Assembly: GCF_045037415.1 (NCBI RefSeq)
Contig: NZ_CP173438.1
DNA from: Escherichia coli
GTDB lineage: Bacteria; Pseudomonadota; Gammaproteobacteria; Enterobacterales; Enterobacteriaceae
Length of the DNA stretch: 64,000 bases
Direction: 5' to 3' (one strand)
Part shown: piece by piece, positions 50,482 through 55,123 of the stretch
Numbering within the stretch: position 1 is the stretch's first letter
Layout: each line of letters opens with the position of its first letter
Program-made: the position numbers and the translations under genes
The notes under the pieces: model-generated
What the model saw: only the letters and a program-made list of their open reading frames with translations
Databases searched by the model: none
What the model was told of the DNA's origin: nothing

Positions 50482-51771
50482 ATGAAAGTATTAGTGATCG
50501 GTAACGGCGGGCGCGAGCACGCGCTGGCCTGGAAAGCGGCTCAGTCGCCGCTGGTTGAAACTGTTTTTGTTGCTCCGGGCAATGCAGGCACTGCGCTGGA
50601 ACCCGCGCTACAGAACGTCGCTATCGGCGTAACCGATATCCCGGCGCTGCTGGATTTCGCACAAAACGAAAAGGTAGATCTAACCATCGTCGGCCCGGAA
50701 GCGCCGCTGGTGAAAGGCGTAGTCGATACCTTCCGCGCCGCCGGGCTGAAAATCTTCGGCCCAACCGCAGGTGCTGCACAACTGGAAGGTTCTAAAGCAT
50801 TCACCAAAGACTTTCTGGCCCGCCATAACATTCCCACAGCGGAATACCAGAACTTCACCGAGGTAGAACCTGCGCTGGCATATCTGCGTGAGAAAGGCGC
50901 GCCAATCGTCATTAAAGCTGACGGTCTGGCAGCCGGGAAAGGCGTTATCGTGGCGATGACGCTGGAAGAAGCTGAAGCAGCTGTTCACGATATGCTGGCG
51001 GGCAACGCGTTTGGCGACGCGGGTCATCGTATTGTTATCGAAGAGTTCCTCGACGGTGAAGAAGCGAGCTTTATCGTGATGGTGGACGGCGAGCATGTGC
51101 TACCGATGGCCACCAGCCAGGATCACAAACGCGTAGGCGATAAAGATACCGGGCCAAACACCGGCGGAATGGGGGCTTACTCTCCTGCGCCGGTAGTGAC
51201 CGATGAAGTTCATCAGCGCACCATGGAACGTATCATCTGGCCAACCGTGAAAGGCATGGCGGCGGAAGGCAACACCTACACCGGTTTTCTCTATGCGGGC
51301 CTGATGATCGACAAACAGGGTAATCCAAAGGTTATTGAATTTAACTGCCGCTTTGGCGATCCGGAAACCCAGCCGATTATGCTGCGCATGAAGTCCGATC
51401 TGGTTGAGCTCTGCCTGGCGGCCTGTGAAGGCAAGCTGGACGAGAAAACGTCCGAGTGGGATGAACGCGCTTCTCTCGGCGTGGTGATGGCTGCGGGTGG
51501 ATATCCGGGCGATTACCGCACCGGCGATGTGATCCACGGCCTGCCGCTGGAAGAAGTGGCAGACGGCAAAGTGTTCCACGCGGGCACGAAACTGGCGGAT
51601 GACGAGCAGGTAGTGACCAGCGGCGGGCGCGTACTGTGCGTTACCGCGCTGGGTCATACCGTGGCAGAAGCGCAGAAACGCGCTTATGCCTTAATGACCG
51701 ATATCCATTGGGACGACTGCTTCTGCCGGAAAGATATCGGCTGGCGCGCTATCGAACGCGAGCAGAACTAA
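50482..51771 (+). CDS. purD: phosphoribosylamine-glycine ligase
   Basis: start at MKVLVIGNGGREHALAWK (429 aa). Confidence 0.96.
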   Translation: MKVLVIGNGGREHALAWKAAQSPLVETVFVAPGNAGTALEPALQNVAIGVTDIPALLDFAQNEKVDLTIVGPEAPLVKGVVDTFRAAGLKIFGPTAGAAQLEGSKAFTKDFLARHNIPTAEYQNFTEVEPALAYLREKGAPIVIKADGLAAGKGVIVAMTLEEAEAAVHDMLAGNAFGDAGHRIVIEEFLDGEEASFIVMVDGEHVLPMATSQDHKRVGDKDTGPNTGGMGAYSPAPVVTDEVHQRTMERIIWPTVKGMAAEGNTYTGFLYAGLMIDKQGNPKVIEFNCRFGDPETQPIMLRMKSDLVELCLAACEGKLDEKTSEWDERASLGVVMAAGGYPGDYRTGDVIHGLPLEEVADGKVFHAGTKLADDEQVVTSGGRVLCVTALGHTVAEAQKRAYALMTDIHWDDCFCRKDIGWRAIEREQN

Positions 51772-53093
51772 CGCGACAGTTTTGCCAATAGCGTTTTGCG
51801 CGTGATCCCTAACTGGCGGGCGGCTTCGGTTTTGTTGCCGCCCGTTTTCTCCAGCGCCGCCAGAATCACCTCTTTTTCGACTTCCACCAGCGGCTGAATA
51901 TCCTGACTTTGTACCAGCGGGATCGGCGTACTGGCAATCGCCAGCGGCAGCTCGCGTTCGGAAATATATTCCCCGGTCAGCAGCACCACCGCCCGTTCCA
52001 CCGCGTTTTCCAGTTCACGAATATTTCCCGGCCAGTCGTAATGAATCAGCAGATCCATCGCCTGGGGCGTAAAGCCTTTTACCGCCTTGCGATTACGTTC
52101 GGCAAAGCGCTGAAGAAAATGGCCAGCCAGCAGAGGAATATCTTCCCGCCGTTGCCGCAGCGATGGTACTTCAATCGCCACCACGTTCAGCCGATAGTAG
52201 AGATCCTGGCGAAAACGCCCGGCATTCACCTCTGCGGCAAGATCGCGATGGGTCGCCGCAATCAGCCGGACATCAACCGAGATAGTCTGGTTGCTGCCGA
52301 CACGTTGCACTTCGCGCTCCTGAATCGCACGCAGCAGACGAACCTGCATCATCGGCGAGATATCGCCAATCTCATCGAGAAACAGCGTGCCGCCGTCCGC
52401 CTCAACAAAGCGCCCTTCTCGCCGTTTGTCGGCTCCGGTAAACGCCCCTTTTTCATGACCGAACAATTCAGATTCCAGCAAGGATTCGTTGAGTGCCGCA
52501 CAGTTGAGCGTTACCAGCGGTTTTTCGCTACGTGCGCTACTGGCGTGAATCGCCCTGGCGACCAGCTCTTTACCGGTACCGGAATCGCCGTGGATCAGCA
52601 CCGTGGCTTCCGATGGCGCGACGAGGGCGATTTCACTGAGCAGGTGTTGCATCGCCGGGCTTTTACCGACCATACCGAACTGGCTGGCAGACACCGCAGG
52701 CGTTTCAGCGTCGATACTGTGCGTATGCGCGAGCGCCTTTTCCAGCGTTGCCTGCAGGTTATCGAAATCCAGCGGCTTGATGAGGTAATCCAGCGCCCCG
52801 GTTTTCAGTGCCTCTACCGCCGTCTCGACGCTGGAGTACGCGGTCATAATCAGTACCGGAATCGCCGGATTTAACGCTTTGATCTCTTTTAGCGTGGCGA
52901 TGCCGTCCATCTCTGCCATTCGCACATCGCAAAGCACAAGATCGAAAACCTGTTCCCGCACCTGCTCCAGCGCCTGTCGCCCGCTGTTCGCCAGCGCGAC
53001 GTTATAGCCCCAGCCGCGCAGTAAAGCCTGCAAAATAGTGCAGTGGCTAATGTCATCATCCACCACCAGAATATCGATATTATCGTGCGTCAT
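51768..53093 (-). CDS. zraR: sigma-54-dependent response regulator ZraR (HydG)
   Basis: 441 aa; receiver domain, AAA+ sigma54-activation domain ([14 protein letters not shown]), C-terminal HTH. Confidence 0.93.
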
Positions 53094-54466
53094 CCTTGTG
53101 GGTCCTTACGCGTAATATTGACCGGAAGCCAGAGGGTGAACGTTGCGCCTTTCCCCTCCTGGCTTGCAACCTGAATTGTACCACCGTGTTGTTCAACAAT
53201 ATTATGCACGACCGCCAGCCCCAGTCCGGTGCCTTCGGCTTTGGTGGTGAAGTACGGAGTGAAGATGGCTTCAAGCTGATCCGCCGCAATTCCCTTACCG
53301 CTGTCGGTAACGCTGATTTTCACGCCCGCGCCGCTTTCGCTGGCCGTCACGCTAATCACGCCATGCAGACCAATCGCCTGAATAGCGTTGAGATAGAGAT
53401 TCAACAGGACCTGAGTCAGCCTGTCCGGATCGGCCTGAATTTCCGGTAATGTGTCGTTGGCGGTAAAGCGTAACTGGATCTCCCGGCTGTTTGCATCCTG
53501 GCTTACCAGCTGTAATGAGTGGCTAATCAGCGTGTTGAGCTCCACCGCCTGCAAAGCCAGATGCGTTGGCTTAACCAGTTCCAGCAGCTCGCTTACCACG
53601 CGGTTTAAACGGTCGGCTTCTTTCGCCATCACCTGCGCCAATTGATGCGCTTCTCCCCCTGCTGGCGCGCGTTCGGCAAAGTATTTCGCCAGCCCTTTAA
53701 TCGAGGAAAGTGGGTTACGGATTTCGTGGGCAACGCCTGCCGCAAGATGCCCCAGTGCCACCAGCTTCTCTTTGCGCTTCATTTCATCCTGCAACAGCTG
53801 GCCCGAGCGCAGATATCGGCGATACCAGAAGAATGACAACACGCTTGCCAGCAAGACCGTCGCCAGGGCGAAGAGGATAATCAGGGTGTTTCTCTGCTCA
53901 CGATCTTCGGCACTCACAATGTTACTGGCGTCGAAAGCGATAAAAATTGCTTGTGGTGTCGCGGCATACTGCTGCATATGGCGCATCCGGTGCATTCCAG
54001 CAGCAAACATCGGTTGAAACTGGCGATAAATTTCCAGAACAGGCTCGCCGTCTGCGCTATCGATCCGCCGCCACGCTTCTTCATCTCCCGGATGTAACTG
54101 CTGCATTTCCTGCGGGGAATAAAGCTGTTTTCCCACCATGCCGGAGTTGCTATGCATCACGATTGTTCCTTGTTCATCCGTGACCGCAAACCAACGTACT
54201 CCAGGCTGCCCGGCCATTTCTTCCAGTAAGGCCTGCTGCTGCGCATGATGCATGCGCATCCCCATTCCGACGCGCGAGCCGGATTCGAGAGCACGGATAA
54301 GTACACTGCCTTTTTCCAGCAGCGTTTGTCTGGCGGCGGCAGTCTCGCGCCCATAATCGCGAATCACTGTCACCGCAAACAGCCCCACCAGCCCAACAAT
54401 GACCACGGGGAGGATCGCGCTTAACCATTTAGCTAAGGAGTCTTTAGAACGTTGCATAAAACGCAT
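53090..54466 (-). CDS. zraS: sensor histidine kinase ZraS (HydH)
   Basis: 458 aa; TM segments, H-box (HEIRNPL) and ATPase motifs; 4-nt overlap with zraR. Confidence 0.9.
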   Translation of the reverse strand: MRFMQRSKDSLAKWLSAILPVVIVGLVGLFAVTVIRDYGRETAAARQTLLEKGSVLIRALESGSRVGMGMRMHHAQQQALLEEMAGQPGVRWFAVTDEQGTIVMHSNSGMVGKQLYSPQEMQQLHPGDEEAWRRIDSADGEPVLEIYRQFQPMFAAGMHRMRHMQQYAATPQAIFIAFDASNIVSAEDREQRNTLIILFALATVLLASVLSFFWYRRYLRSGQLLQDEMKRKEKLVALGHLAAGVAHEIRNPLSSIKGLAKYFAERAPAGGEAHQLAQVMAKEADRLNRVVSELLELVKPTHLALQAVELNTLISHSLQLVSQDANSREIQLRFTANDTLPEIQADPDRLTQVLLNLYLNAIQAIGLHGVISVTASESGAGVKISVTDSGKGIAADQLEAIFTPYFTTKAEGTGLGLAVVHNIVEQHGGTIQVASQEGKGATFTLWLPVNITRKDPQG

Positions 54467-54564
54467 CTTCTTCTTTGCCTGCCCATCCCTTTCTGACAGC
54501 AGAAATCATGCCATCTTTTATCAGCGCTTACCCTGCGCTGTAACACAAAGGCTTAAGTTTCAAT

Positions 54565-54610
54565 GAGTAAAAATGACTCGCTACCCACAACAGGCGAGTC
54601 ATTTTTACTC
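54565..54610. promoter_or_regulatory. inverted repeat gagtaaaaatgactcgc / gcgagtcatttttactc, ZraR enhancer-type site
   Basis: two 17-bp arms in perfect inverted orientation separated by 12 bp in the zraS-zraP divergent region. Confidence 0.7.
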
Positions 54611-54652
54611 GTTTATCATGCCAGATTACCCGTCATATCAGCGTTTCGCCGT

Positions 54653-54668
54653 TGGCACGAAAGATGCA
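54653..54668 (+). promoter_or_regulatory. sigma-54 promoter of zraP (TGGCAC-N5-ATGCA)
   Basis: tggcacgaaagatgca ~35 nt upstream of the zraP start. Confidence 0.75.
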
Positions 54669-54703
54669 ATACCCGAAGTAAGACAACCACTGGAGGATTA
54701 ACC

Positions 54704-55123
54704 ATGAAACGGAACACGAAAATTGCCCTGGTAATGATGGCGCTTTCAGCAATGGCGATGGGATCGACATCGGCATTTGCTCACGGCGGACACGGTATGT
54801 GGCAGCAAAATGCCGCGCCTTTGACCAGCGAACAACAAACAGCGTGGCAGAAAATCCATAATGACTTTTACGCTCAAAGCAGCGCACTGCAACAGCAACT
54901 GGTGACAAAGCGTTATGAATACAATGCCCTGTTAGCCGCGAACCCACCGGATAGCAGCAAAATTAACGCGGTCGCCAAAGAGATGGAGAATTTGCGTCAG
55001 TCGTTAGATGAGTTACGGGTGAAACGAGATATTGCGATGGCTGAAGCGGGTATTCCGCGCGGTACCGGAATGGGTTACGGCGGCTGCGGTGGTGGCGGTC
55101 ATATGGGTATGGGCCACTGGTAA
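54704..55123 (+). CDS. zraP: zinc-resistance-associated periplasmic protein
   Basis: start at MKRNTKIALVMMALSAMAMGSTSAFA with RBS ggagg; Gly/His/Met-rich C-terminus. Confidence 0.88.
   Translation: MKRNTKIALVMMALSAMAMGSTSAFAHGGHGMWQQNAAPLTSEQQTAWQKIHNDFYAQSSALQQQLVTKRYEYNALLAANPPDSSKINAVAKEMENLRQSLDELRVKRDIAMAEAGIPRGTGMGYGGCGGGGHMGMGHW

What the first reader, a model, noticed from the sequence alone, without database searches (positions are those of the whole stretch)
54565..54668. zraP-zraS divergent region with paired 17-bp inverted repeats and a sigma-54 promoter
The arms gagtaaaaatgactcgc and gcgagtcatttttactc are perfect inverted repeats 12 bp apart, followed by TGGCAC-N5-ATGCA upstream of zraP; a weaker TGGCAT-N5-CTGCT element points toward zraS on the other strand. 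This is the expected ZraR enhancer/sigma-54 architecture and shows the envelope zinc-stress module is intact.
Basis: partly seen in the sequence, partly recalled or inferred. Interest (0 to 1): 0.15.

Follow-up and report, generated by a model that had tools for sequence, protein, structure and literature searches.

The report
Known zraP–zraSR sigma-54 control region
This is the already well-studied control region between the E. coli zraP and zraSR genes: two mirror-image binding sites for the activator ZraR sit between two back-to-back sigma-54 promoters. It is intact and ordinary here.

Summary
Perfect 17-bp inverted arms lie at 54565-54581 and 54594-54610, 12 bp apart. TGGCAC-N5-ATGCA lies at 54653-54668 (+) and TGGCAT-N5-CTGCT at 54513-54498 (-). 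The window is E. coli chromosome. The region is the 237-bp zraS/zraP intergenic spacer, and 5,419 of 5,426 complete E. coli genomes carry it. It differs from K-12 at 6 positions, none in the arms.

The two sigma-54 motifs are the two best of 127,968 positions in the window when scored with a matrix built from 40 other E. coli sigma-54 sites. Both are sigma-54 ChIP targets in K-12 and in Salmonella.

An alignment of 24 sequences from five genera shows only four strongly conserved islands: the two promoters and two 15-bp sites, GRGTAAAAATGACYC. The site centres are 31 bp apart in 23 of 24 sequences. The long repeat is perfect in only 4 of 24 sequences. The constraint is therefore on two protein-binding sites, not on a hairpin.

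The zraS promoter is not weaker by sequence, only by measured occupancy and expression. The functional unit is two 15-bp dyad sites rather than 17-bp arms.

Novelty: already known. In passing I saw two deeply divergent forms of the ZraS sensor domain in E. coli, and a weakly conserved motif of unknown role.

The parts
51768..53093 (-). zraR: sigma-54-dependent response regulator and enhancer-binding protein (receiver domain, AAA+ domain with GAFTGA motif, HTH_8 DNA-binding domain)
   Evidence: NCBIfam equivalog NF007689, 996 bits, full length. Pfam finds Response_reg 8-117, Sigma54_activat 141-308 and HTH_8 403-440. 438 of 441 residues are identical to K-12. PDB 1OJL (ZraR) matches at E 4e-178.
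53090..54466 (-). zraS: sensor histidine kinase. The periplasmic sensor part is encoded by about 53868-54346.
   Evidence: NCBIfam equivalog NF007688, 880.8 bits. Pfam finds HisKA and HATPase_c. The cytoplasmic part is 98% identical to K-12 and the periplasmic part 59%.
54498..54514 (-). PzraS, the sigma-54 promoter ATGGCATGATTTCTGCT (GG at 54512-54511, GC at 54500-54499). Predicted transcription start about 54487, giving a 21-nt leader.
   Evidence: Best matrix score in the window, 18.0. Identical to the K-12 sigma-54 ChIP-seq motif OS39. Conserved in all 21 related loci. Weighted information content 1.87 bits.
54529..54551 (.). Weakly conserved bipartite island, ACCCTG-N8-ACACAAA, between PzraS and site A. 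Role unknown.
   Evidence: The blocks 54530-54535 and 54544-54550 have 1.58 and 1.51 bits against a background of 0.67. None of 10,000 random column draws reached the island mean. No IHF consensus and no sigma-70 match.
54565..54579 (.). ZraR site A, GAGTAAAAATGACTC (dyad GAGT-N7-ACTC). Its centre at 54572 is about -107 from PzraP and -85 from PzraS.
   Evidence: Identical to K-12. Consensus GRGTAAAAATGACYC, with 11 of 15 positions invariant and two more varying in a single site, over 48 sites. Information content 1.82 bits.
54580..54595 (.). 16-bp spacer between the sites. Its length is conserved but its sequence is free to vary.
   Evidence: Two of the six differences from K-12 lie here, at 54587 and 54590. 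Information content 0.75 bits. Length is 16 bp in 23 of 24 sequences.
54596..54610 (.). ZraR site B, GAGTCATTTTTACTC, the reverse complement of site A. Its centre at 54603 is about -76 from PzraP and -116 from PzraS.
   Evidence: Information content 1.92 bits.
54652..54668 (+). PzraP, the sigma-54 promoter TTGGCACGAAAGATGCA (GG at 54654-54655, GC at 54666-54667). Predicted transcription start about 54679, giving a 25-nt leader.
   Evidence: Second-best matrix score in the window, 17.75. The K-12 ChIP-seq motif OS38 differs only at spacer base 54660. Conserved in all related loci. Information content 1.85 bits.
54692..54696 (+). Shine-Dalgarno sequence GGAGG of zraP
   Evidence: Read directly from the sequence. 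Conserved.
54704..55123 (+). zraP: periplasmic CpxP-like chaperone and feedback modulator
   Evidence: NCBIfam equivalog NF008584, 279.5 bits. Pfam Metal_resist. 138 of 141 aligned columns are identical to K-12.

Best explanation
The region is the bidirectional ZraR enhancer and the two divergent sigma-54 promoters of the zraP / zraSR envelope-stress (zinc-responsive) module.

Shown here by sequence and conservation: two 15-bp dyad sites (GRGTAAAAATGACYC, core GT-N7-AC) lie in mirror orientation, 31 bp centre to centre. That is about three helical turns, so both sit on the same face of the DNA. Together they form a 46-bp unit with two-fold symmetry, placed between PzraS and PzraP.

Inferred from published work on K-12 and Salmonella and from general knowledge of sigma-54 activators: sigma-54 RNA polymerase sits on both promoters as a closed complex. 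Envelope stress or high Zn2+ activates ZraS, which phosphorylates ZraR on D56. ZraR dimers occupy the two sites and assemble into an AAA+ ring. The ring reaches either promoter by looping the 50-60 bp of intervening DNA and uses ATP hydrolysis and the GAFTGA loop to open the promoter. The result is strong induction of zraP and weaker autoinduction of zraSR. ZraP then feeds back on ZraS.
For: - The repeat and both -24/-12 motifs are present and non-random.
- The flanking genes are ZraP, ZraS and ZraR equivalogs with complete domains, including HTH_8, GAFTGA and D56.
- Both sites and PzraS are identical to K-12, and PzraP differs at one spacer base.
- Published binding in K-12: ZraR genomic SELEX found this spacer as the single high-affinity target, in 81 of 86 clones (PMC8249747). 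ZraR ChIP-exo peaks lie upstream of zraP and zraSR (PMC7657598). Sigma-54 ChIP-seq peaks OS38 and OS39 carry these motifs (PMC4591121). Sigma-54 holoenzyme SELEX also picked up this spacer (PMC8743547).
- In Salmonella both promoters are bound by sigma-54 and are sigma-54-dependent (PMC3844500).
- In 24 sequences from Escherichia, Citrobacter, Salmonella, Kosakonia and Pluralibacter, only the two promoters and the two sites are strongly conserved (1.82-1.92 bits against 0.4-0.9). The site spacing is 31 bp in 23 of 24. The spacer sequence is free to vary.
- The distance from site B to PzraP is 50.5-51.5 bp in Escherichia and 61.5-62.5 bp elsewhere. The difference of 11 bp is one helical turn, as expected if helical phase matters.
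- Synteny zraR-zraS <> zraP-yjaH-hupA is kept across genera.
Against: - Nothing in the data contradicts this explanation.
- No binding or transcription was measured for this strain.
- The original footprint paper could not be read.
- No IHF-like site was found to explain how such a short loop forms.
- Transcription start sites are predicted from motif positions, not mapped here.
- The ZraS sensor domain differs from the K-12 form that has been characterised, so signal input may differ.
Confidence: 0.95

Rival explanations
1. The long palindrome acts as a nucleic-acid structure: a DNA cruciform, or a transcribed hairpin such as a terminator, attenuator or small RNA. It would not be a pair of protein-binding sites.
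For: The single strand is predicted to fold into a 20-21-bp stem at -18.8 kcal/mol, with a z-score of -8.9 against shuffles. Rfam gives only sub-threshold matches to microRNA hairpin models; the best is 25.5 bits against a gathering score of 79.
Against: - The palindrome lies upstream of both predicted transcription starts.
- No terminator-like site and no T-run follow it, and no Rfam family reaches threshold.
- Across 24 sequences the arms are perfectly complementary in only 4. Changes at positions 2 and 14 are not compensated in the other arm, while each site's own sequence stays nearly invariant. This is the pattern expected of protein sites, not of base pairing.
Confidence: 0.02
2. The sites serve a regulator other than ZraR, or in addition to it. 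Candidates are a second enhancer-binding protein such as NtrC or AtoC, or a repressor. ZraR would then be only one of the inputs.
For: zraP expression rose under nitrogen limitation in K-12 (PMC4591121). The ZraR-associated gene module is active under phosphate starvation and ethanol stress (PMC7657598). A weakly conserved extra island at 54529-54551 has no assigned factor.
Against: [quoted passage not shown] The site GRGTAAAAATGACYC does not resemble the NtrC consensus TGCACC-N5-GGTGCA (my own knowledge). ZraR SELEX selects this spacer almost exclusively. The sites stay linked to zraR across genera.
Confidence: 0.03
3. The inverted repeat is a remnant of a mobile element (terminal inverted repeats, or a miniature or REP-like element), and the sigma-54-like motifs are chance matches.
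For: Long perfect inverted repeats are typical of mobile-element ends. The loose pattern TGGCA-N7-TGCW occurs 5 times in the window against 1.8 expected.
Against: The region is single-copy: a median of 1 place per genome in 5,420 genomes. It sits at the same syntenic position in five genera. The two motifs are the top two matrix hits in the window and are experimentally bound by sigma-54.
Confidence: 0.005

Closest known systems
E. coli K-12 zraP-zraSR (hydHG) intergenic region (Leonhartsberger et al. 2001, J Mol Biol 307:93; RegulonDB and EcoCyc ZraR sites)
   Same: The same locus. It is 237 bp in both strains. Both 15-bp (and 17-bp) repeats and PzraS are identical. The flanking genes and their divergent layout are the same.
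   Different: There are six single-base differences: 54483, 54587, 54590, 54648, 54649 and 54660. Two are in the spacer between the sites, one is in the PzraP spacer, and none is in a conserved element. ZraS carries the other, more common form of the periplasmic domain, and ZraP is 2 residues shorter. I recall the 2001 abstract describing 'two inverted repeats separated by a 14 bp spacer'. I could not check that wording.
NtrC enhancer of glnAp2 (E. coli and Salmonella)
   Same: Two strong dyad sites for a response-regulator-type activator, about three helical turns apart. They drive oligomerisation and looping to a sigma-54 promoter. The NtrC site positions (-140 and -108, 32 bp apart) are from my own knowledge. 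The ZraR spacing of 31 bp is.
   Different: The ZraR sites are closer to the promoters (centres at -76/-107 and -85/-116). They serve two divergent sigma-54 promoters from one symmetric unit. The recognition sequence is different.
NorR enhancer of norVW (E. coli)
   Same: Inverted repeats with the core GT-(N7)-AC (PMC2831303). The ZraR sites share that core (GRGT-N7-ACYC). The activator gene is divergent from its target, and the regulator has a single target (PMC8249747).
   Different: NorR needs three sites plus an IHF site. Here there are two sites and no recognisable IHF site. As far as I know, the activator's own operon has a sigma-54 promoter here, which is not the case for norR.

Membership tests
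Sigma-54 (-24/-12) promoter | GG and GC doublets exactly 10 bp apart within TGGCAC-N5-TTGCW | tested here: met
   PzraP is TGGCAC-GAAAG-ATGCA at 54653-54668. PzraS is TGGCAT-GATTT-CTGCT at 54513-54498.
Sigma-54 (-24/-12) promoter | Score comparable to experimentally bound sites and well above the local background | tested here: met
   A leave-out matrix from 40 ChIP sites gives 17.75 and 18.0 bits (training median 15.8). These rank second and first of 127,968 positions; the next best scores 14.2.
Sigma-54 (-24/-12) promoter | Oriented toward a gene and a short distance upstream of it | tested here: met
   The predicted leaders are 25 nt (zraP) and 21 nt (zraS). These equal the 'distance' values in Table 1 of PMC4591121.
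Sigma-54 (-24/-12) promoter | Bound by sigma-54 holoenzyme; transcription depends on rpoN | not testable with these tools
   Published for K-12 (ChIP-seq scores 39 and 9; holoenzyme SELEX) and for Salmonella (ChIP-chip and expression). The motifs here are identical or differ at one spacer base.
Enhancer (upstream activating sequence) for an NtrC-family activator | Dyad-symmetric sites roughly 70-150 bp upstream of the sigma-54 promoter | tested here: met
   The site centres are at -76/-107 from PzraP and -85/-116 from PzraS, derived.
Enhancer (upstream activating sequence) for an NtrC-family activator | Two or more sites on the same helical face, with conserved spacing | tested here: met
   31 bp centre to centre in 23 of 24 sequences, and 32 bp in one.
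Enhancer (upstream activating sequence) for an NtrC-family activator | Sequence conservation of the sites but not of the DNA around them | tested here: met
   Information content is 1.82 and 1.92 bits for the sites, against 0.75 for the spacer and 0.43-0.50 for the flanks. Of 15 positions, 11 are invariant and two more vary in a single site, over 48 sites.
Enhancer (upstream activating sequence) for an NtrC-family activator | Cognate activator with a DNA-binding domain encoded at the locus | tested here: met
   The ZraR equivalog has HTH_8 at residues 403-440, and the linkage is kept in all genera checked.
Enhancer (upstream activating sequence) for an NtrC-family activator | Direct binding by ZraR to these bases (footprint) | not testable with these tools
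   ZraR binds this spacer in SELEX and ChIP-exo and binds the zraP-hydHG intergenic region. The base-level footprint paper is not held. No held paper quotes the site sequence.
ZraPSR three-component envelope-stress module | Full-length ZraP, ZraS and ZraR with catalytic motifs, in divergent zraP <> zraSR order | tested here: met
   Equivalog matches cover the full profiles. D56, GAFTGA and the HEIRNPL histidine box are visible in the translations. RefSeq annotates the identical strain without pseudogene flags.
ZraPSR three-component envelope-stress module | Zinc or envelope-stress responsiveness of this strain's ZraS form | not testable with these tools
   The periplasmic domain is only 59% identical to the characterised K-12 form.

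The most novel reading that the evidence does not exclude
The spacer may hold more than the two ZraR sites and two promoters described so far. A bipartite island (ACCCTG-N8-ACACAAA, 54529-54551, about -43 to -63 from the zraS start) is conserved across five genera, and only on the zraS side. Each ZraR site also keeps a strictly invariant asymmetric centre (AAAAATG), with the A-tract on the outer side. Together these could mean that an unrecognised architectural or regulatory factor, or intrinsic DNA curvature, sets the unequal output of the two promoters from one symmetric enhancer.
Probability: 0.15. Interest if true: 0.25.

Novelty: already known. Interest (0 to 1): 0.06.

Why it matters
This matters little beyond correct annotation. 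The zraP/zraSR control region has been characterised since 2001 and is used in zinc biosensors. The work here confirms that it is intact in this strain.

It adds a base-level comparative definition of the ZraR site: GRGTAAAAATGACYC, present twice in mirror orientation, 31 bp apart. It also shows an 11-bp, one-turn length difference between the enhancer and PzraP in Escherichia compared with other genera.

The side observation may be of more practical interest. K-12 carries the minority form of the ZraS sensor domain, so results from K-12 may not transfer to most E. coli.

Tried and rejected
- Leonhartsberger 2001 could not be retrieved by DOI.
- A full-text search for the site sequence found only unrelated primer coincidences. 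Searches for 'HydG / inverted repeats / spacer' and for a ZraR consensus found nothing that quotes the footprint.
- A sigma-70 promoter and terminator scan of 54400-54760 found nothing.
- Rfam at a permissive threshold found only sub-threshold microRNA-hairpin matches caused by the palindrome.
- An IHF consensus scan (WATCAANNNNTTR, up to 1 mismatch) found no positionally conserved site in any of the 24 spacers.
- A search of the window for further ZraR-like 15-mers found only 3-mismatch hits at about the chance rate: 8 found, including the two real sites, against 4.1 expected.
- By eye I compared the weak island with CRP, CpxR, the marbox, NtrC, Zur, ZntR, a third GT-N7-AC site and sigma-70 hexamers. 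None fits.
- A literature search on ZraS sensor-domain variation gave only an unrelated mention, an ato-locus gene labelled zraS_2.
- The single genome-collection scan used exact E. coli ZraP peptides and did not reach Klebsiella or Enterobacter. I ran no further search on this.

Full report
**What is there.** The window is E. coli chromosome. The 291 bp around the finding is 100% identical to strain SK1144 and is present in 5,420 of 5,426 complete E. coli genomes, in 5,419 of them nearly complete, and as a single copy. RefSeq annotation of the identical strain, and NCBIfam equivalog models, give the gene order purD, zraR (51768-53093, -), zraS (53090-54466, -), zraP (54704-55123, +), yjaH, hupA. 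The finding therefore lies in the 237-bp zraS/zraP divergent spacer, 54467-54703.

**Checking the observation.** The arms GAGTAAAAATGACTCGC (54565-54581) and GCGAGTCATTTTTACTC (54594-54610) are perfectly complementary with 12 bp between them. The paired pattern occurs once in the window and never in 100 shuffles. TGGCAC-GAAAG-ATGCA is at 54653-54668 on the + strand. TGGCAT-GATTT-CTGCT is at 54513-54498 on the - strand. A loose -24/-12 pattern is not rare, with 5 hits against 1.8 expected. I therefore built a 17-bp scoring matrix from the 40 other intergenic sigma-54 ChIP-seq motifs in Table 1 of Bonocora et al. 2015 (PMC4591121) and scored every position of the window on both strands. The zraS and zraP sites rank first and second of 127,968 positions, at 18.0 and 17.75 bits. 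The next best scores 14.2 and the training median is 15.8.

**Comparison with the characterised strain.** Against K-12 MG1655 the spacer has the same length and six single-base differences. None is in the repeat arms or in the GG/GC promoter elements. Two fall in the 12 bp between the arms and one falls in the PzraP spacer.

In K-12:
- Sigma-54 ChIP-seq gives peaks with exactly these motifs, zraP at score 39 and zraS at score 9.
- Sigma-54 holoenzyme SELEX recovers the spacer.
- ZraR genomic SELEX finds this spacer as its single strong target, in 81 of 86 clones (PMC8249747).
- ZraR ChIP-exo gives peaks upstream of zraP and zraSR (PMC7657598).

In Salmonella both promoters are bound by sigma-54 and are sigma-54-dependent (PMC3844500). 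The 2001 footprint paper is not in the held library. My recollection that it describes two inverted repeats with a short spacer is knowledge, not a tool result.

**Comparative footprint.** I collected the orthologous spacer from 21 species-level genomes and from four further contigs. Of these, 22 were aligned together with the window and K-12, giving 24 sequences from Escherichia, Citrobacter, Salmonella, Kosakonia and Pluralibacter, all with the same gene order.

The spacer is otherwise poorly conserved, at 0.4-0.9 bits per column after sequence weighting. Four islands stand out:
- PzraS, 1.87 bits
- 54565-54579 (site A), 1.82 bits
- 54596-54610 (site B), 1.92 bits
- PzraP, 1.85 bits

.

The two central islands are copies of one 15-bp word in opposite orientation, GRGTAAAAATGACYC. 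Over 48 sites, 11 of 15 positions are invariant and two more vary in a single site. Their centres are 31 bp apart in 23 of 24 sequences, about three helical turns. The 16 bp between them varies freely.

The 17-bp arms are perfectly complementary in only 4 of 24 sequences. Changes at positions 2 and 14 of one site are not matched in the other site. Selection therefore acts on two protein-recognition sites, not on base pairing. This disposes of the cruciform or hairpin reading despite a strong predicted fold of -18.8 kcal/mol, z = -8.9. No sigma-70-like promoter, terminator or Rfam family is present.

**Geometry.** Taking GC as -13/-12, the predicted starts are 54679 (zraP, 25-nt leader) and 54487 (zraS, 21-nt leader). 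These match the 'distance' values 25 and 21 in the ChIP-seq table. The site centres are then at -76/-107 from PzraP and -85/-116 from PzraS.

The distance from site A to the PzraS GG is 58.5-60.5 bp in all taxa. The distance from site B to the PzraP GG is 50.5-51.5 bp in Escherichia and 61.5-62.5 bp in the other genera. That 11-bp difference is one helical turn, so it keeps the rotational phase.

The whole 46-bp unit has two-fold symmetry about 54587/54588, which suits an enhancer that feeds two opposite promoters. No conserved IHF-type site is present on either side.

**Mechanism.**

Shown:
- The elements, their conservation and their spacing.
- An intact activator with receiver domain (D56), AAA+ domain with GAFTGA, and HTH_8. 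It is 438/441 identical to K-12 ZraR and matches the solved ZraR structure 1OJL.

Inferred from the literature on this system and on NtrC-type activators:
- ZraS phosphorylates ZraR under zinc or envelope stress.
- ZraR dimers fill the two sites and assemble a ring.
- The ring loops to sigma-54 polymerase at either promoter and opens it by ATP hydrolysis.
- ZraP is made in large amounts and damps ZraS, and zraSR is autoinduced more weakly.

**Relation to known systems.** This is the known K-12 element itself. In layout it resembles the two strong NtrC sites of glnAp2. In core sequence (GT-N7-AC) it resembles the NorR sites of norVW (PMC2831303). Unlike NorR there are two sites rather than three, and no evident IHF site.

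- The zraS promoter is not weaker by sequence. It scores 18.0 against 17.75 here, and 20.1 against 17.4 in the Salmonella study. It is weaker in occupancy and output.
- The functional units are 15-bp dyads. The perfect 17-bp arms are specific to a few lineages.
- PzraS lies outside the stated coordinates.
- 'Intact' holds for ORFs and domains. Function in this strain is inferred.

**Verdict.** The feature is real and correctly interpreted, and it is already known. Interest is low.

**Side observations**, listed separately: two deeply divergent forms of the ZraS periplasmic domain in E. coli; a weakly conserved island of unknown role; over-extended ZraP start annotations; and one strain with the control region deleted.

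Noticed in passing
window 53868-54346 (zraS, residues about 41-199, the periplasmic sensor domain): E. coli carries two deeply divergent forms of the ZraS sensor domain. This segment is only 52-71% identical in DNA to K-12, while the rest of zraR-zraS-zraP is 93-100% identical. At the protein level the periplasmic part is 59% identical and the cytoplasmic part 98%. Of 5,419 E. coli genomes, 4,183 carry the window's form (at least 95% identity) and 1,236 carry the K-12 form (60-80% identity to the window). The well-studied K-12 sensor is therefore the minority form. The K-12 form is closest to E. whittamii (92.5%) and E. albertii (80%). The window's form is closest to Escherichia sp. MOD1-EC7003 (86%). 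This points to old allele classes or recombination. I found no description of this in the held literature.
   Followed up: partly
window 54529-54551: A bipartite island, ACCCTG-N8-ACACAAA, lies between PzraS and ZraR site A, about -43 to -63 from the predicted zraS start. It is conserved across five genera: 1.58 and 1.51 bits against a background of 0.67, and none of 10,000 random column draws reached its mean. It matches no motif I could name, including IHF, sigma-70, CRP, CpxR, NtrC or a third GT-N7-AC site. The zraP side has no counterpart.
   Followed up: partly
window 54611-54651, against L008-L027: The stretch between ZraR site B and PzraP is 11 bp shorter in Escherichia than in Citrobacter, Salmonella, Kosakonia and Pluralibacter (51.5 against 62.5 bp from site centre to GG). 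It shows no sequence conservation. An insertion or deletion of exactly one helical turn keeps the rotational phase.
   Followed up: yes
window 54563-55123: An ORF of 186 aa starts at an ATG inside ZraR site A and runs in frame into zraP. Some database entries annotate ZraP with this extended start (P0001 at 183 aa and P0002 at 186 aa). The real start is ATG 54704, behind the GGAGG, downstream of the sigma-54 promoter and of the predicted transcription start.
   Followed up: yes
L028 (E. coli WS0115A, NZ_CP035882.1), locus 1772-2539: One of 5,426 genomes has a deletion that removes the N-terminal half of zraS, the whole enhancer and both promoters. Only 17 bp remain between the truncated zraS pseudogene and zraP. 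This is a rare natural loss of the module's control region.
   Followed up: partly
window 59488-59504 (+) and 59080-59096 (+): These are the next-best sigma-54 matrix hits in the window: CTTGCACTACCTTTGCA at 14.2 bits and ATGGCAACAATAATGCA at 13.4 bits. The second lies inside nudC and the first sits just past its start codon. They could be weak intragenic sigma-54 sites of the kind reported in K-12, or chance matches.
   Followed up: no
window 54505-54513 and 54615-54623: The 9-mer ATCATGCCA occurs twice. One copy is the -24 element of PzraS. The other is just right of ZraR site B, where it has no matching -12 element. It is specific to E. coli and not conserved in other genera, so it is probably chance.
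   Followed up: partly
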